This document shows, piece by piece, positions 496 to 4,575 of a stretch of 4,996 bases of DNA (the first letter of the stretch is position 1; each line of letters begins with the position of its first letter). The translations under genes and the position numbers were made by a program. The notes beneath the pieces are model-generated. The model searched no databases, had not been told where the DNA came from, and was given only the letters and a program-made list of their open reading frames with translations. This DNA comes from a plasmid: NCBI RefSeq assembly GCF_055900595.2, contig NZ_JBVWEU010000010.1; one strand, written 5' to 3'.

Positions 496-1554
496 ATGGC
501 GATCTATGCCGTATGGAATAACAAGGGTGGTGTAGGGAAAAGTTACCTTACTTTTCAGTTAGCCTCTGAATATGCCAGACAGAACCCTACTAAAAAGGTC
601 CTGGTGGTTGACCTGTGCCCACAAGCGAACTCGTCCTCTATGTTACTTGGTGGAATGATAAATGGCGAAAACACACTAAACCAGATTCATTCAGCAATAC
701 AGAGAAAGACAATATCTGGATATATTGAGGATAGGATCAGAAGTCCATATATTCCTACCAACACTGGTTCTAGCTATGTAATAAATGTATCTACACACAA
801 TAGTAAAGTTCCAAATAATCTATATCTTGTCACTGGCGATGAACAATTAGAACTCCAAGCATCAAGAGTTGTTGGGGCATCATTTCCAGGTCCCCATGAT
901 GCATGGCGTACTGTTCACCTCTGGATTAATGATTTAATCAGTGACATTTGCAACTCATGGAATAATGAAGATAGCTGCGTATTCATTGACTGCAACCCTA
1001 GCTTCTCTATTTATACAGAGTTAGCTTTAACCGCAGCAGAGCGCCTTTTAATTCCTTTCTCTGCCGATGGTTCATCAAAGAGAGCAGTTAAGGCTGTACT
1101 TTCTTTAGTTTATGGTGAGCGTCGCCATCAGAATGAACCACAATCAGATTTCTATCTTAATAGCAATCGTTATTCTATGTCGCTACCACAAATATATATG
1201 TATGTTGGAAATAGATTAACGCAAATGAACAATTCATCTGCCAGTGCATTTAAGACGGTAGTAACCGAAATTGGTGATGAAATTTGGAAAGTATGGCAAA
1301 CAAAACCAAGTCTGTTTTGTATTCACCCAAATGGGAGCTCAACGCCAAATAATAAAAGATCTTTCAGGAATATGTTTCAGTATGAAGTAAATGATGCAAA
1401 CACAGCATCTGTCGTATCTGGAGCCTTAGGTATTCCAATCGCGACATTAACTGCAGGAAATAAAACTGTTTCAGGAAAAATAATAAAGGTTAATCAGACG
1501 CAGCTAGATAAACAAGTCCCCAACATTGTAGCTCTCGCTGGTATGATCGAATAA
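496..1554 (+). CDS. ParA/MinD/Soj-superfamily P-loop ATPase, 352 aa, with ~90-aa C-terminal extension of unknown function
   Basis: ATG preceded by AGGAG (484-488, 7-nt spacer). Deviant Walker A KGGVGKS at residues 10-16 (nt 523-543); ParA-type VLVVDLCPQANSS segment; Walker B-like CVFID (nt 976-990) followed by NPSFSIYTELALTAAERLLIPFSAD. Long uninterrupted ORF ending at a strong intrinsic terminator. AT-rich compared with the backbone. No symbol assigned because the specific family is not recognised. Confidence 0.85.
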   Translation: MAIYAVWNNKGGVGKSYLTFQLASEYARQNPTKKVLVVDLCPQANSSSMLLGGMINGENTLNQIHSAIQRKTISGYIEDRIRSPYIPTNTGSSYVINVSTHNSKVPNNLYLVTGDEQLELQASRVVGASFPGPHDAWRTVHLWINDLISDICNSWNNEDSCVFIDCNPSFSIYTELALTAAERLLIPFSADGSSKRAVKAVLSLVYGERRHQNEPQSDFYLNSNRYSMSLPQIYMYVGNRLTQMNNSSASAFKTVVTEIGDEIWKVWQTKPSLFCIHPNGSSTPNNKRSFRNMFQYEVNDANTASVVSGALGIPIATLTAGNKTVSGKIIKVNQTQLDKQVPNIVALAGMIE

Positions 1555-1556
1555 AA

Positions 1557-1590
1557 TAGCAAGGCCCTTAAAAGGGCCTTTTTTTATTTG
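1557..1590. terminator. Bidirectional intrinsic terminator between convergent genes
   Basis: Perfect 7-bp GC-rich stem aaggccc (1561-1567) / gggcctt (1574-1580) with 6-nt loop, followed on the plus strand by a T-run (1581-1585 and beyond) and flanked on the minus strand by a weaker U-rich stretch. Lies 3 nt after the ParA-like stop and just after the stop of the 1584-1841 minus-strand ORF. Confidence 0.7.
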
Positions 1591-1841
1591 TTTTTCTTTA
1601 CTGCTTGCAGCGCCCTGCCAGCACTAGAGGCCAACTCTTTGATTACATTATCTTTACTTTCAACAACCTCAGTAAGCAACTCGTTTTCGTTTTCCAGTTT
1701 ATTCAAAGCGTTCTGAGTATCTTCAATAGCATCATCATACCCTTCGGCATAGCCATCCATCCAACCAAGAGTATACGTTTGGTCCAAAAGATCAGCTTGC
1801 TTATCCTGCAGATCTTTATTCTGATTATTGTTAGAGCCCAT
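1584..1841 (-). CDS. Small acidic hypothetical protein, 85 aa (D/E/N/Q-rich, probably helical)
   Basis: ATG at 1841 preceded on the minus strand by TGAGGAAAAAAC (GAGG about 8 nt upstream); ends at the shared terminator. The plus-strand antisense ORF (1605-1901) starts with TTG, lacks an SD and is hydrophobic, so the minus-strand reading is preferred. No recognisable family. Confidence 0.6.
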   Translation of the reverse strand: MGSNNNQNKDLQDKQADLLDQTYTLGWMDGYAEGYDDAIEDTQNALNKLENENELLTEVVESKDNVIKELASSAGRALQAVKKNK

Positions 1842-2016
1842 GTTTTTTCCTCATTTGTTGGCGCATCTGAGTTTTCAAACCAGGAGGAATTCCATTTCTA
1901 AGTTTCTCACTTAGTCTGACTGGTGGTGTGTTTCCTGAGACTGGATTACAGTCAGCATCCACCCCGACATCTTTCTTTTTATAGTCGCCAATATTCCTAA
2001 CGTTATCTGTAGTCAT
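1831..2016 (-). CDS. Possible small basic protein, 61 aa, overlapping the start of the 85-aa ORF by 11 nt
   Basis: ATG at 2016 downstream of the AT-rich divergent promoter region; its last codons contain the SD of the next ORF (translational-coupling geometry). No convincing SD of its own and no recognisable motif; may be only a 5' leader. Confidence 0.3.
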   Translation of the reverse strand: MTTDNVRNIGDYKKKDVGVDADCNPVSGNTPPVRLSEKLRNGIPPGLKTQMRQQMRKKHGL

Positions 2017-2258: not shown

Positions 2259-2690
2259 ATGAAAATACCCGCGCATTTGAAGCATAAACCAATTATTCAA
2301 GTCGAAAATTACGACCGCATTGACGGCCCACATGCCGATGACACTGATGCTATGGGGCTATCTGTAGGTATTGCTCAATGGAACACTCCTGGATGGACTG
2401 AGCTTTCGGCAAAGGTTTGGCGAAACACAGGAGAAAAATGGTCAAGACAATCAGAAGAGCTGCCTCTTCACCGGGTAATCGACCTTGCAACTCTGATCTG
2501 TATCACCATGGACTACAGTAAAAATGGGCGACTTTCATCCAGTGATGATTTTCCCGTGACTCGCTCAACTGATAACCCTGAGCTAGCACATCACACTGAG
2601 TTTATGAAAAAAGAGTTAAAACAAAATAAAAGCAATCTTGATGTAAGCCTCAAACGCCTCTCGACTGAATTGAAGAGACTTGGCTATTAA
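2259..2690 (+). CDS. Hypothetical protein, 143 aa, unknown function
   Basis: ATG preceded by TAAGGA (2246-2251, 7-nt spacer); candidate promoter upstream; ORF ends 38 nt before the first Xer-like site. No recognisable catalytic motif; C-terminus is K/E/L-rich. Confidence 0.65.
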   Translation: MKIPAHLKHKPIIQVENYDRIDGPHADDTDAMGLSVGIAQWNTPGWTELSAKVWRNTGEKWSRQSEELPLHRVIDLATLICITMDYSKNGRLSSSDDFPVTRSTDNPELAHHTEFMKKELKQNKSNLDVSLKRLSTELKRLGY

Positions 2691-2727: not shown

Positions 2728-2755
2728 ATTTACCATAACATCCGTTTTTCGAACC
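2728..2755 (-). other. XerC/XerD-type site-specific recombination site (cer/dif-like, 6-bp central region), site 1
   Basis: Minus-strand reading GGTTCGAAAAA-CGGATG-TTATGGTAAAT (11-6-11). The XerD arm is identical to the cer XerD arm TTATGGTAAAT; the XerC arm matches consensus GGTGCGnAnAA at about 7 of 11 positions. Shares an identical 20-bp core (aatttaccataacatccgtt, 2727-2746) with site 2. Confidence 0.6.
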
Positions 2756-2783: not shown

Positions 2784-3188
2784 TCACCGGAAAAAATCAT
2801 CCACAGAGTCGCTCCACTCATGCCCGGAAAGAGACCACACCTTGTTTATAGGGGGAGGATAACCACTCCTGCAGTACCCGTTTTTTCCCACGAAATCGAA
2901 TGCCCCGTGCGGGTATCCATTGATCAGGAGTACGCACTTCTGACTGTCTTCTGACCAGCCAATTTTAACATCAGAAGGAATGTGACCGTCTGAAACGTCT
3001 TCGGCATTGTAGATGTGTACTGCGTCCATAATCGGGTTTCCCTCGACGGACTCATCGAGCGCATAGAAATACCCGGTCCGGCCATCGTCTTCGAACACGG
3101 CGGCCAGCATGCCCTCAGGAGCGAGGCTCTTTATAACCTGTTCCTCCCCGACAACGAGCTGGGCCTGTATCGTCACTAAAATGGTCAT
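2784..3188 (-). CDS. Hypothetical protein, 134 aa, GC-rich, cargo of the Xer-bounded cassette
   Basis: ATG at 3188 with AAGGAG about 10 nt upstream on the minus strand; the ORF fills almost all of the interval between the two Xer-like sites. No motif recognised. The overlapping 70-aa minus-strand ORF (3115-3327) is judged spurious. Confidence 0.6.
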   Translation of the reverse strand: MTILVTIQAQLVVGEEQVIKSLAPEGMLAAVFEDDGRTGYFYALDESVEGNPIMDAVHIYNAEDVSDGHIPSDVKIGWSEDSQKCVLLINGYPHGAFDFVGKNGYCRSGYPPPINKVWSLSGHEWSDSVDDFFR

Positions 3189-3245
3189 CAGGTCTGTTCT
3201 CCTTTCCTTGGTTGCTTCGGCAGCCAGCTTTCAGACAAGCGGATA

Positions 3246-3273
3246 ATTTACCATAACATCCGTTATCAGCATC
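3246..3273 (-). other. XerC/XerD-type site-specific recombination site (cer/dif-like), site 2; candidate plasmid multimer-resolution site
   Basis: Minus-strand reading GATGCTGATAA-CGGATG-TTATGGTAAAT; central region and XerD arm identical to site 1, XerC arm about 8 of 11 to consensus. About 300 bp of GC-rich sequence with no credible ORF lies on its XerC side (3274-3580), where cer-type accessory sequences would be expected. Confidence 0.6.
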
Positions 3274-3594
3274 GTCAGAAACGCGCTGAGGGCGTTTCTG
3301 ACGGGAAACCGGTAAAACAGGCAACAAACCACCCGAAAACCCGCCAGAAACGCGCAGGCTCTGTTTTTATGGCATGCATGAGTATGCACGCAAGTGCATA
3401 GCGCGAATATTCACGCCATTCAGACAGGGTAAGTCCTGTTTCCGGCGTTCTTCCCATCCGAAAACGGTGAACGGGGACGCAATTTATTGCGTGGCCGTGA
3501 AGCGTTGCCGGCGCAGCCGGAAAACCGGTTTTCAGCACGTTCAGGAATCGGGTTCGTCGACGGCCGGCAATCACGTTATGGCAAGTCGCCGGAC

Positions 3595-3784
3595 GACTCA
3601 CCACACGATTCACCGGCGACTCTGCACTAGAGTCGTACCTAGAGTCGCCGCGACTAAAAAACAACCAAACGGGGAGTCGGGTCTAGAGTCGGGTCGTTAT
3701 TAACTCATTGTTTTTATAGCCCTGAGTCGTTACCGACTCTATGACGACTCGCCGGGGACTCTATGACGAGTCGTCATAGAGTCG
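3595..3784. repeat. Array of 12 GAGTC/GACTC motifs (11 as the hexamer GAGTCG/CGACTC), including two pairs of tandem 12-bp repeats and nested inverted repeats
   Basis: Counted directly: GAGTC at 3630, 3642, 3674, 3686, 3724, 3768, 3779; GACTC at 3595, 3618, 3735, 3746, 3757. Tandem ctagagtcg at 3627 and 3639; tandem gagtcgggtc at 3674 and 3686; 13-bp gactctatgacga at 3735 and 3757 (direct) and 3771 (inverted). Chance expectation for a 5-mer on both strands in ~190 bp is under 1. Confidence 0.7.
3757..3783. repeat. 27-bp perfect palindrome gactctatgacgagtcgtcatagagtc (13-bp arms around a central G)
   Basis: Every position i pairs with position 28-i; sits at the end of the GAGTCG array, immediately before an AT-rich stretch (3786-3860). 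Confidence 0.75.
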
Positions 3785-3982
3785 GATCTATATAAATAAA
3801 ATTTAAAAAACGAAATCTCAGGAAAGTAAACTACTGATATTAAATACAAATCTGCAAAATTTTAATTTTGCGTGGGGTGTGGGTATTTTTAGTGGTGAGG
3901 AGCGTTCAGAGATCTGACTATTTTTGGGAAGGTTCAGGAACTCCCCGGGATGGCCGGAGAGGAAAACTGAAGCATGACAGGG

Positions 3983-4384
3983 TCAGGATTTTTTCCAGAA
4001 TTTCCACCATGGCGCCGGGGATTCAGTTAATTTTGCCTGGTGATTTTCAAGAAGGAGCATGGCCTGTTTCAGGCTGTCAATGTGCGAATCTTTGGACAAA
4101 AGTAAAGTGTTCAGGTGTTCAATCTCCTGTTTCAGATGACGAATCACCTGTTCACACTGGTCAACAGAGGCTGTATCGCGCTGTTCAGAGACCTGTCCAG
4201 AATGGTGTTCACCCTTCAGTTGTTCAAAGGGACCAAAGACACGTAAAAGCTCTGAAGTATCTACCATTTTTGCATTGCGCTCACCGCTACAGGTGGACAG
4301 GTCACCTGCTTTAATTAACCTGTGCAGTGTTGTTCTACTCTTACCCGTCAGTCGGGCTGCCTCACTAATAGACACTCTGGCCAT
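3983..4384 (-). CDS. HTH DNA-binding protein (excisionase/MerR-like HTH_17-type N-terminus) with C-terminal coiled-coil-like region, 133 aa
   Basis: N-terminus SISEAARLTGKSRTTLHRLIKAGDLS fits the excisionase-family HTH pattern (EAAxLxGxSxxTxxRLIxxGxL); the C-terminal half is heptad-like and Q/E/L-rich. Start ATG overlaps the rop stop (TGATG at 4382-4386), implying co-transcription and translational coupling. Its antisense 148-aa ORF is Arg-rich and judged spurious. Confidence 0.7.
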   Translation of the reverse strand: MARVSISEAARLTGKSRTTLHRLIKAGDLSTCSGERNAKMVDTSELLRVFGPFEQLKGEHHSGQVSEQRDTASVDQCEQVIRHLKQEIEHLNTLLLSKDSHIDSLKQAMLLLENHQAKLTESPAPWWKFWKKS

Positions 4385-4575
4385 CAGTTACCATCCTGTA
4401 ATGCATCCAGTCTCGAGGACAGTGTACGGAAAAGATGCTCCGCATCATCGTGGAGTTTCTCACAAAGGTCGGCCTCGACATCAAGATCAAGCTCGTTAAG
4501 CTTCTCCAGCAGGAGCAGAGATTGATGCTGGATGAATTTAGCCATGTTCAGCGCTGTTTTCTGTTGTTTCGTCAT
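4384..4575 (-). CDS. rop: Rop/Rom RNA I-RNA II interaction modulator, 63 aa
   Basis: Translation MTKQQKTALNMAKFIQHQSLLLLEKLNELDLDVEADLCEKLHDDAEHLFRTL... closely matches ColE1/pMB1 Rop (MTKQEKTALNMARFIRSQTLTLLEKLNELDADEQADICESLHD..., recalled from memory), with identical length of 63 aa; located just downstream of the origin in replication direction. Confidence 0.9.
   Translation of the reverse strand: MTKQQKTALNMAKFIQHQSLLLLEKLNELDLDVEADLCEKLHDDAEHLFRTLSSRLDALQDGN

What the first reader, a model, noticed from the sequence alone, without database searches (positions are those of the whole stretch)
3757..3783. 27-bp perfect palindrome capping the GAGTCG array, next to an AT-rich unwinding-prone stretch
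13-bp perfect arms around a single central base are rare by chance and can form a cruciform or hairpin in single-stranded DNA. The adjacent 3786-3860 stretch is very AT-rich. This hairpin-plus-AT-tract combination resembles nick-site or single-strand initiation/oriT architecture, or a dimeric regulator operator.
Basis: seen in the sequence. Interest (0 to 1): 0.5.

Follow-up and report, generated by a model that had tools for sequence, protein, structure and literature searches.

The report
TraM-binding sites of an orphan oriT
The palindrome is real, but it is best read as three protein-binding motifs inside a complete F-plasmid-type transfer origin carried by a small Klebsiella plasmid with no transfer genes, a known way for small plasmids to hitch-hike on large conjugative ones.

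Summary
The 27-bp palindrome (3757-3783) is confirmed and is far beyond chance. It is not a stand-alone hairpin. It consists of three GANTC motifs 11 bp apart, the nic-proximal half of a six-motif cluster (3724-3783). That cluster belongs to a 13-motif array (3595-3783).

About 97 bp to the right lies an F-type nick site, TTTGCGTGGGGTGT^GG (nic 3880/3881, + strand). The window is a whole ~5-kb ColE1-type Klebsiella plasmid with no relaxase, traM or traY.

In conjugative IncFII(K)-type plasmids the same nic sequence sits between traM and the SLT transglycosylase gene. Their GANTC motifs lie at the same distances from nic (102, 113, 124, 135, 146, 195, 207, 263 bp). Their TraM proteins carry the K/R3-Q5-Y7 residues that read GANTC in the pED208 TraM-DNA crystal structure.

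In relatives about 74% identical the palindrome is lost, but the motifs and their phasing are kept.

Best reading: the palindrome is part of the sbmC-like TraM site of an orphan oriT that lets the plasmid be mobilised in trans. The nick-site-hairpin idea is wrong. This is a new member of a known kind, of modest interest.

The parts
3757..3783 (.). The reported 27-bp palindrome. It consists of three GANTC motifs (GACTC 3757, GAGTC 3768, GAGTC 3779) with mutually complementary 6-nt spacers (TATGAC / GTCATA). The dyad centre G3770 is the centre of the middle motif.
   Evidence: (I8)
3724..3783 (.). Nic-proximal GANTC cluster, proposed to be equivalent to sbmC. Six motifs lie exactly 11 bp apart (3724, 3735, 3746, 3757, 3768, 3779), that is 157 to 102 bp upstream of nic. 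It contains the 19-nt inverted repeat 3733-3751 / 3767-3785.
   Evidence: (I2). Conjugative plasmids L012, L031, L022 and L001 have motifs at the same distances.
3674..3695 (.). Middle cluster, GAGTC-GGGTC-TA-GAGTC-GGGTC. Two perfect and two degenerate motifs are interleaved, with like motifs 12 bp apart. The perfect motifs are 207 and 195 bp from nic.
   Evidence: Conjugative plasmids have motifs at 207 and 195.
3583..3646 (.). Distal cluster: AAGTC 3583, GACTC 3595, GATTC 3607, GACTC 3618, GAGTC 3630, GAGTC 3642, spaced 12/12/11/12/12 bp. It occupies the position of the traM-promoter-proximal sites (sbmA/B-like) of conjugative plasmids. It is nearly invariant among the small plasmids.
3786..3860 (.). 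A+T-rich spacer (80% A+T) between the proximal cluster and nic. It holds IHF-consensus-like sites with one mismatch at 3827-3839 (-) and 3855-3867 (-). It is the presumed IHF/TraY bending region.
   Evidence: The IHF matches are not enriched over chance for the window as a whole.
3840..3902 (+). Conserved F-type nic region, holding the TraI recognition sequence TTTGCGTGGGGTGT (3867-3880) and the predicted nick between T3880 and G3881 on the + strand. Transfer would proceed rightwards, so the HTH-rop-ori side enters first and the GANTC array last.
   Evidence: F substrate sequence in PMC2504302. The direction of transfer is inferred from established F biology.
3983..4575 (-). Backbone genes next to the oriT: an HTH DNA-binding protein (3983-4384) and Rop (4384-4575). 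The order Rop-HTH-nic-array is kept in every small-plasmid relative examined.

Best explanation
The palindrome is the nic-proximal part of a TraM-binding array within an orphan F-like (Klebsiella IncFII(K)-type) origin of transfer on a relaxase-less ColE1-type plasmid.

Proposed mechanism. A co-resident F-like conjugative plasmid supplies TraM, a tetramer with two ribbon-helix-helix dimers. Each RHH dimer reads one GANTC motif. Motifs 11-12 bp apart lie on one face of the helix, so the six-motif proximal cluster (3724-3783) would load several tetramers, as sbmC does in F. Together with IHF and TraY on the A+T-rich spacer, this builds a relaxosome. The helper's TraI then nicks the + strand at TTTGCGTGGGGTGT^GG (3880/3881). 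TraM bridges the complex to the coupling protein TraD, and the small plasmid is transferred without encoding any transfer protein.

The dyad symmetry comes from a palindromic core motif with symmetric spacers, as is typical of sbm sites. It does not point to a need for a hairpin.

Shown here: the sequence features, the homology and positional identity with conjugative oriTs, and the conservation pattern. Inferred: TraM binding, nicking and mobilisation.
For: 1. Plasmid identity. The window is 100% identical over 701 bp to ~4991-bp Klebsiella/E. coli plasmids. It carries RNAI, Rop and ColE1-like ori homology. No ORF matches a relaxase, TraM or TraY.

2. Location in conjugative plasmids. Window 3840-3902 matches about 1360 conjugative plasmids at roughly 90% identity. 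In each of the 12 such regions retrieved with annotation it lies between traM and the SLT transglycosylase gene. The 14 nt 5' of nic equal the F TraI substrate.

3. Motif positions. GANTC motifs lie at identical distances from nic in the window (102, 113, 124, 135, 146, 157, 195, 207, 239, 251, 263, 274, 286) and in conjugative plasmids. Examples are L001 (102, 113, 124, 146, 195, 207, 229, 241, 263, 275), L012 (102, 113, 124, 135, 146, 239, 258) and L022 from Hafnia (102, 113, 124, 135, 146, 195, 207, 229, 241, 263, 275).

4. Reading residues. The TraM proteins of those plasmids have K/R3-Q5-Y7. These are the residues that read GANTC in the pED208 TraM-sbmA crystal structure, where motifs bound by one tetramer are 12 bp apart and an 11-bp spacing also binds (PMC3159463). 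F- and R100-like plasmids with N5 have no GANTC array.

5. Conservation. Motif columns have a majority fraction of 0.96, spacers 0.60 and the motif centre 0.48. The palindrome itself is not kept in the clade about 74% identical.

6. Independence from ParA. The array and nic occur together in a 2.9-kb relative that lacks the ParA-like gene.

7. Precedent. oriT-only plasmids are mobilised by the IncFII helper pKPHS2 in a traI- and oriT-dependent way (PMC10691111). pKPHS2 itself has an 11-bp-phased GA(G/C)TC array and an R3 TraM.

8. Co-residence. Both E. coli genomes that hold the identical plasmid also hold a Klebsiella-type F-like conjugative plasmid. Only 72 of 5426 E. coli genomes match that type of oriT/traM region.
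Against: There is no experimental evidence for TraM binding, nicking or transfer of this plasmid. MOB-suite types it as non-mobilizable.

The proximal cluster has one motif per 11 bp. It does not show the four-motif staggered arrangement inferred for crystallised pED208 sbmA, in which adjacent motifs would lie about 6 bp apart (inferred).

The bases just 3' of nic differ from the helpers (GGGTATTTTT against GGTGATTTT).

IHF-like matches are no more frequent than chance, and no TraY site could be tested.

The window's motifs have a G/C centre. That centre co-varies with R3-type TraM, yet the co-resident helper in both E. coli carriers is K3-type with A/T-centred sites. The cognate helper is therefore unresolved.
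Confidence: 0.8

Rival explanations
1. The palindrome works as a DNA hairpin or cruciform. It would be a relaxase recognition hairpin next to nic, a single-strand initiation signal, or a supercoil-driven cruciform beside an unwinding element.
For: The arms are perfect and fold strongly as ssDNA: -11.1 kcal/mol for the 27-mer and -23 kcal/mol for the 19-nt-arm alternative, with z of -5.9 and -7.1. The palindrome lies on the transferred strand 5' of nic, so it would be single-stranded during transfer.
Against: The stem is not conserved. In relatives about 74% identical the arms are broken, while the GANTC columns keep their 11-bp register. Conjugative oriTs have motifs at the same positions with different or no dyad symmetry. 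The nic site is 97 bp away and its surroundings are unstructured. F-family TraI binds its site as extended ssDNA with intrastrand base contacts, not as a distal hairpin (PMC2504302). A 1-nt loop cannot form, so about 12 bp of stem remain.
Confidence: 0.05
2. The array is an operator or centromere for a protein encoded by the small plasmid itself. Candidates are the adjacent HTH protein (3983-4384) and a partner of the ParA-like ATPase (496-1554). It would serve copy-number control, partition or gene regulation, not transfer.
For: One-turn-phased short repeats are typical of plasmid centromeres and iterons. The HTH gene is always next to the region in the small plasmids. Its best family match is 'plasmid replication DNA-binding protein', at 63 bits, below the cut-off of 85. 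A ParA-like gene is present.
Against: The same motifs lie at the same distances from nic in conjugative plasmids that lack this HTH gene and have traM there instead. The array occurs in a 2.9-kb relative with no ParA-like gene. No promoter-like site lies in 3200-4000, and the array is not upstream of any gene on this plasmid. The motif centre co-varies with residue 3 of the helpers' TraM.
Confidence: 0.07
3. The region is a decaying, non-functional relic of an F-like oriT picked up by recombination. The palindrome would then be a recent local duplication or inversion with no role.
For: No transfer genes are present and the plasmid is typed non-mobilizable. The units GACTCTATGAC and GTCATAGAGTC look like recent duplications (D9). 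The bases just 3' of nic differ from the helpers.
Against: The nic block is nearly invariant across small-plasmid clades that are only about 74% identical elsewhere. Motif columns are far better conserved than spacers. One relative (L006) has switched to the GCGTAGTGTGT nic variant, which is also found in conjugative plasmids L017, L021 and pKPHS2, as expected if helpers are being tracked. About 660 PLSDB records keep at least 80% of the 341-bp region 3570-3910, which spans most of the array and nic.
Confidence: 0.08

Closest known systems
pED208 (IncFV) TraM-sbmA complex (Wong et al. 2011, PMC3159463)
   Same: The core motif is the same (GANTC). It is read by an RHH beta-ribbon with K3-Q5-Y7, and the Klebsiella-type helpers have K/R3-Q5-Y7. 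Motifs contacted by one tetramer are 12 bp apart, and an 11-bp spacing also binds. The sites show inverted-repeat symmetry.
   Different: By inference from the paper's text, pED208 sbmA packs four motifs about 6 bp apart for two staggered tetramers. The window's proximal and distal clusters have one motif per 11-12 bp, and only the middle cluster (3674-3695) shows an interleaved pattern with degenerate GGGTC. The window's motifs have almost only G/C at the centre. No TraM is encoded on this plasmid.
F plasmid oriT (nic, IHF A/B, sbyA, sbmC/B/A)
   Same: The 14 nt 5' of nic are identical (TTTGCGTGGGGTGT). The order is the same: nic, A+T-rich spacer, then three clusters of TraM-type sites spread over about 200 bp. 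The span of 322-344 bp from nic to traM seen in conjugative relatives would place a traM start at about 3536-3558 in the window.
   Different: F TraM (K3-N5) reads A(G/C)CG(G/C)T, not GANTC, and F-like loci have no GANTC array. The bases 3' of nic differ. In the small plasmid a Xer site and a Rop-HTH backbone replace traM and the leading-region genes.
Klebsiella IncFII(K)-type oriT (putative oriT_FK of Ares-Arroyo et al., bioRxiv 10.1101/2024.01.30.577996; helper pKPHS2 in PMC10691111)
   Same: The nic block is about 90% identical. GANTC motifs are in base-for-base register with pCTXM15_020035, pKPGJ-2b and a Hafnia plasmid. The pKPGJ-2b, pRHBSTW-00510_4 and pKPHS2 arrays are G/C-centred like the window's.
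   Different: The array sequences are too diverged for megablast (only 24 conjugative records match the array even in distant mode). The window has six proximal motifs, where most helpers have four or five perfect ones. Whether the published oriT_FK sequence covers this region was not checked.
oriT-only ('pOriT', relaxase-in-trans) plasmids
   Same: It is a small plasmid with an oriT homologous to that of conjugative plasmids and no relaxase. The general phenomenon is documented in E. coli, S. aureus and K. pneumoniae (PMC10123127, PMC10691111, PMC6764390).
   Different: It retains the full set of accessory-protein sites (about 300 bp), not just a nic core. It is a ColE1 replicon with an F-family oriT in place of the usual ColE1/MOBP-type oriT.

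Membership tests
F-family (MOBF/MPF-F) origin of transfer | A nic sequence matching the TraI recognition site | tested here: met
   Window 3867-3882, TTTGCGTGGGGTGT^GG, is identical to the F TraI36 substrate 5' of nic (PMC2504302). Positions +3 to +5 differ (GTA against TGC in F).
F-family (MOBF/MPF-F) origin of transfer | Homology to the traM-SLT (gene X) intergenic region of conjugative F-like plasmids | tested here: met
   About 1360 conjugative PLSDB records match 3840-3902. All 12 regions retrieved with annotation place the match between traM and the SLT gene.
F-family (MOBF/MPF-F) origin of transfer | Clusters of TraM sites between nic and the traM position | tested here: met
   Three GANTC clusters lie 102-157, 195-207 and 239-298 bp from nic, in register with conjugative plasmids.
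F-family (MOBF/MPF-F) origin of transfer | IHF binding sites flanking a TraY site between nic and sbmC | tested here: inconclusive
   One-mismatch IHF consensus matches lie at 3827-3839, 3855-3867 and 3698-3713, but the window total (8) is not above chance (6.5 +/- 2.7). A partly conserved TAAC..ACTG element lies at about -55 to -42 in most loci. No TraY consensus was available.
F-family (MOBF/MPF-F) origin of transfer | Nicking by TraI and transfer that depend on a helper | not testable with these tools
   This needs mating and nicking assays. The precedent for oriT-only plasmids with helper pKPHS2 is in PMC10691111.
GANTC-type TraM binding site (pED208 class) | GANTC core motifs with conserved G, A, T and C and a free centre | tested here: met
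   There are 13 motifs in 3595-3783 against a shuffle mean of 1.5. The majority fraction is 0.96 for G/A/T/C columns and 0.48 for the centre.
GANTC-type TraM binding site (pED208 class) | Spacing of 12 bp (11 tolerated) between motifs bound by one tetramer | tested here: met
   Spacings within clusters are 11 or 12 bp throughout. The 12- and 11-bp data are in PMC3159463.
GANTC-type TraM binding site (pED208 class) | Four staggered motifs allowing two tetramers on opposite faces, as in sbmA | tested here: not met
   The palindrome and proximal cluster have no interleaved motifs (spacers TATGAC / GTCATA). Only 3674-3695 shows GAGTC-GGGTC-TA-GAGTC-GGGTC. The roughly 6-bp stagger of pED208 sbmA is inferred from the text, because the sequence itself was not retrievable.
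GANTC-type TraM binding site (pED208 class) | A cognate TraM with the K3-Q5-Y7 reading head | tested here: met
   It is met in the helpers, not in the window. The TraM proteins of 22 F-like loci carrying GANTC arrays have K/R3 and Q5; 20 of them have Y7 and two (L027, L030) have F7. N5 types have no array (residues named).
GANTC-type TraM binding site (pED208 class) | Direct binding by TraM | not testable with these tools
   EMSA or footprinting is required.

The most novel reading that the evidence does not exclude
Residue 3 of TraM (Lys or Arg) may set a preference for the centre base of GANTC (A/T or G/C). This would split Klebsiella-type F-like plasmids into mobilisation-specificity groups. 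Small ColE1 plasmids typed 'non-mobilizable' (roughly 600-1000 PLSDB records) would then be dedicated hitch-hikers whose arrays are tuned to a helper allele. The window's G/C-centred array would suit R3 helpers such as pKPHS2- and pKPGJ-2b-type KPC/ESBL plasmids. The mixed arrays and the switched nic variant in relatives would broaden or shift helper range.
Probability: 0.35. Interest if true: 0.55.

Novelty: new member of a known kind. Interest (0 to 1): 0.3.

Why it matters
It reclassifies a very common family of small Klebsiella and Enterobacterales plasmids. Standard typing calls them non-mobilizable, but they are probably mobilisable in trans by the F-like plasmids that spread KPC and ESBL genes. 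It also gives exact coordinates for nic and for the accessory-protein sites, so the prediction can be tested directly. Finally, it yields a testable rule for TraM specificity (K3/R3 against the motif centre) that could predict which helper moves which passenger. The principle of orphan oriTs and relaxase-in-trans mobilisation is already established, so the gain is one of annotation and specificity and not a new mechanism.

Tried and rejected
- Nick-site or ssi hairpin: rejected. The palindrome is not conserved, nic is 97 bp away, and the nic surroundings are unstructured.
- Centromere for the ParA-like ATPase: rejected. The array and nic occur in a 2.9-kb relative without that gene.
- Operator of the adjacent HTH protein: unlikely. 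Conjugative plasmids have the same motif register without that gene, and no promoter-like site lies in 3200-4000.
- Coding explanation: ORFs 3275-3664(-) and 3374-3703(+) overlap the array but match no family and are treated as spurious.
- Rfam: only RNAI at 177-278, nothing in the oriT region.
- IHF consensus scan: not above chance.
- pED208 (AF411480) and the Col440I/II reference records (CP023920, CP023921) could not be fetched. The pED208 site layout rests on the paper's text, and the PlasmidFinder type of this plasmid was not established.
- A cer site inside 3555-3590, which I first suspected by eye: dropped. blastn against ColE1 places the cer-like core at 3246-3273 instead.
G/C-centred conjugative arrays were found through traM instead.

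Full report
**Observation.** The palindrome is real. The arms 3757-3769 and 3771-3783 are 13 nt, perfectly complementary, and flank G3770. None of 300 first-order Markov shuffles of the window gave a perfect inverted repeat of 13 nt or more; the mean longest was 8.1 and the maximum 12. A longer perfect repeat overlaps it, with 19-nt arms at 3733-3751 and 3767-3785. This arises because the unit GACTCTATGACGA occurs at both 3735 and 3757. The neighbouring stretch 3786-3860 is 80% A+T against 55% for the window.

**What the palindrome is made of.** It consists of three copies of the pseudo-palindromic pentamer GANTC (GACTC 3757, GAGTC 3768, GAGTC 3779). They are separated by 6-nt spacers that are reverse complements of each other (TATGAC and GTCATA). 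The dyad centre is the middle base of the middle motif.

These three motifs are the right half of a six-motif cluster spaced exactly 11 bp (3724-3783). Further left lie a middle cluster (3674-3695) and a distal cluster (3583-3646) with 11-12-bp spacing. In all there are 13 perfect GANTC motifs in 3595-3783, where local shuffles give 1.5 on average and 6 at most.

**Context.** The window is an entire ColE1-type plasmid. It is 100% identical over the tested 701 bp to ~4991-bp plasmids of Klebsiella pneumoniae, Enterobacter and E. coli. It carries RNAI at 177-278, ColE1-like ori homology at both ends of the window, Rop (4384-4575) and an adjacent HTH gene (3983-4384). No ORF matches a relaxase, TraM or TraY, and MOB-suite types these plasmids as non-mobilizable.

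**The nick site.** At 3867-3882 the + strand reads TTTGCGTGGGGTGT^GG. The 14 nt 5' of the caret are identical to the F-plasmid TraI substrate (PMC2504302). Window 3840-3902 matches about 1360 conjugative plasmids at roughly 90% identity and about 2400 E. coli plasmids at roughly 80%. In each of the 12 regions retrieved with annotation the match lies between traM and the SLT transglycosylase gene, which is the classical position of the F-family oriT.

**The array is in register with conjugative oriTs.** The array itself is too diverged for megablast. When the sequences are anchored at nic, however, the GANTC motifs fall at the same distances.
- Window: 102, 113, 124, 135, 146, 157, 195, 207, 239, 251, 263, 274, 286.
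- pCTXM15_020035 (L001): 102, 113, 124, 146, 195, 207, 229, 241, 263, 275.
- pKPGJ-2b (L012): 102, 113, 124, 135, 146, 239, 258.
- A Hafnia plasmid (L022): 102, 113, 124, 135, 146, 195, 207, 229, 241, 263, 275.

In those plasmids traM starts 322-344 bp from nic. The window's array therefore fills the space that holds the TraM sites sbmC, sbmB and sbmA in F (descriptions in PMC3159463, and PMC2504302).

[quoted passage not shown] The two RHH dimers of one tetramer contact motifs 12 bp apart, and an 11-bp spacing also supports binding of a single tetramer (PMC3159463).

The TraM proteins of all 22 F-like loci here that carry GANTC arrays have K or R at position 3 and Q at position 5. Twenty have Y at position 7, and two pED208-like loci (L027, L030) have F. 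The F/R100-like TraMs, with N5, come with no GANTC array. TraM is thus the natural candidate reader of the palindrome. It is supplied in trans, because the window encodes none.

**Conservation favours motifs over a hairpin.** Seven small-plasmid relatives form two clades about 74% identical in this region. The nic block is nearly invariant, and the GANTC motifs keep their 11-bp register. The spacers, and with them the palindrome, are not kept (nic-anchored rows).

Across seven small and conjugative sequences the majority fraction is 0.96 for the G, A, T and C columns, 0.48 for the motif centre and 0.60 for spacers. Conjugative plasmids show other local dyads at the same place, for example GACTCTATCCAGACTC...GAGTCTGGATAGAGTC in pKPGJ-2b. 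This fits the published remark that sbm sites have inverted-repeat symmetry. The 44 nt around nic have no predicted structure.

**Mechanism proposed.** A co-resident F-like plasmid provides TraM, TraY, TraI and the type IV secretion system. TraM tetramers load on the one-turn-phased motifs, with the proximal cluster, including the palindrome, acting like sbmC. In F, sbmC is the site most important for transfer. IHF and TraY would occupy the A+T-rich spacer. TraI would nick the + strand at 3880/3881, and TraM would couple the relaxosome to TraD.

These steps are inferred from the F and pED208 systems. The sequence anatomy and the homology are what is shown here. There is a precedent: oriT-only plasmids are mobilised by the IncFII helper pKPHS2 in a traI- and oriT-dependent way (PMC10691111). 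pKPHS2 has an 11-bp-phased GA(G/C)TC array and an R3 TraM.

**Circumstantial support.** Both E. coli genomes that carry the identical plasmid (EC25 and 1444) also carry a Klebsiella-type F-like conjugative plasmid. Only 72 of 5426 E. coli genomes match that type of oriT/traM region.

**A specificity pattern, and a caveat.** Among loci with Q5, residue 3 of TraM tracks the motif centre. Nine K3 loci (MAK, VAK or LAK N-termini) have 84 A/T-centred and 7 G/C-centred motifs. Ten R3 loci have 2 and 57. Three pED208-like MPK loci are mixed.

When TraM residues 8-87 are clustered, K3 and R3 proteins are interleaved. For example, the nearest neighbours of the R3 Hafnia TraM are K3 proteins at 82% identity. 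The switch has therefore probably happened several times. Residues 3 and 5 are already known to set F against R100 specificity.

The window's array (12 G/C, 1 A/T) would thus suit R3 helpers. About 250 PLSDB plasmids have a TraM at least 90% identical to the R3 protein of pKPGJ-2b. Yet the co-resident helper in both E. coli carriers is K3-type with A/T-centred sites. The centre base may therefore be a preference and not a barrier, or co-residence may not reflect co-transfer. This remains open.

**Rivals.** The hairpin or cruciform reading fails on conservation and on position. A centromere for the ParA-like ATPase fails because a 2.9-kb relative has the array and nic without that gene. An operator for the adjacent HTH protein is unlikely, because conjugative plasmids keep the same motif register without that gene and no promoter-like site is present. 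A decaying relic is unlikely given the invariant nic block, the motif-selective conservation, and a relative (L006) that has switched to the GCGTAGTGTGT nic variant also used by conjugative plasmids L017, L021 and pKPHS2. From memory, this variant is the R100-type TraI site; that identification was not checked here.

**Comparison with what is known, and novelty.** Orphan oriTs and relaxase-in-trans mobilisation are well documented (PMC10123127, PMC10691111, PMC6764390). A Klebsiella F-type oriT (oriT_FK) has been proposed. The finding is therefore a new member of a known kind: a complete F-family oriT, accessory sites included, on a ColE1 replicon.

It differs from pED208 sbmA in having one motif per turn and not a staggered four-motif site. 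That defining feature of sbmA was tested and is not met for the palindrome. I therefore claim that it works like an sbmC-type TraM site, not that it is an sbmA. Interest is modest. The value lies in correcting the 'non-mobilizable' label of a very common plasmid family and in the testable TraM specificity rule.

Noticed in passing
window 2728-2755 and 3246-3273 (- strand sense): Two cer/mwr-like Xer core sites lie in direct orientation (ATTTACCATAA-CATCCG-TTTTTCGAACC and ATTTACCATAA-CATCCG-TTATCAGCATC). Each is a reverse-complemented XerD arm TTATGGTAAAT plus a 6-nt centre. They flank the 134-aa ORF 2784-3188(-). The second aligns with the ColE1 cer core. This may be a Xer-mobilised gene cassette.
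   Followed up: partly
traM-oriT loci L001, L010-L012, L014-L034: TraM residue 3 co-varies with the centre base of GANTC. K3 loci have 84 A/T and 7 G/C centres (9 loci). R3 loci have 2 A/T and 57 G/C centres (10 loci). K3 and R3 proteins are interleaved when the rest of the protein is clustered. pED208-like MPK proteins have mixed centres, and N5 proteins have no GANTC.
   Followed up: partly
L006 (OW968368.1, 3991-bp plasmid) nic region; also L017, L021, L034: One small-plasmid relative carries GCGTAGTGTGT^GG in place of GCGTGGGGTGT^GG at nic. The same two-base variant occurs in some conjugative Klebsiella/Raoultella plasmids, including pKPHS2. From memory it is the R100-type TraI site. This suggests that small plasmids track helper relaxase specificity.
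   Followed up: partly
E. coli EC25 (NZ_CP035127 + NZ_CP035124) and strain 1444 (NZ_CP184056 + NZ_CP184053): Both E. coli genomes with the plasmid identical to the window also hold a Klebsiella-type F-like plasmid. Its TraM (WP_004194114) is K3-type with A/T-centred sites, which does not match the window's G/C-centred array.
   Followed up: partly
L037 (E. coli 13P484A chromosome NZ_CP019280, about 824.6-825.7 kb) and 13 other chromosomal places: The diverged array, nic, HTH and Rop occur in E. coli chromosomes inside IS26-bounded resistance or metabolic regions. These are captured fragments of a small ColE1 plasmid that bring an orphan F-type oriT into the chromosome.
   Followed up: partly
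window 496-1554 (+), 1584-2016 (-), 2259-2690 (+), 2784-3188 (-): The cargo genes are poorly characterised. A 352-aa ATPase matches ParA-type models only at its N-terminal Walker motif (52 bits against a cut-off of 180). Four further ORFs have no significant NCBIfam match; the only hits are two weak FliH matches for the 85-aa ORF at E about 0.002, far below cut-off. Their function was not pursued.
   Followed up: no
window 3568-3620: The left end of the array and the about 25 bp before it (GGCAAGTCGCCGGACGACTCACCACACGATTCACC) are nearly invariant in all seven small plasmids. They are more conserved than the rest of the array, although no traM promoter is needed there. The reason is unknown.
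   Followed up: no
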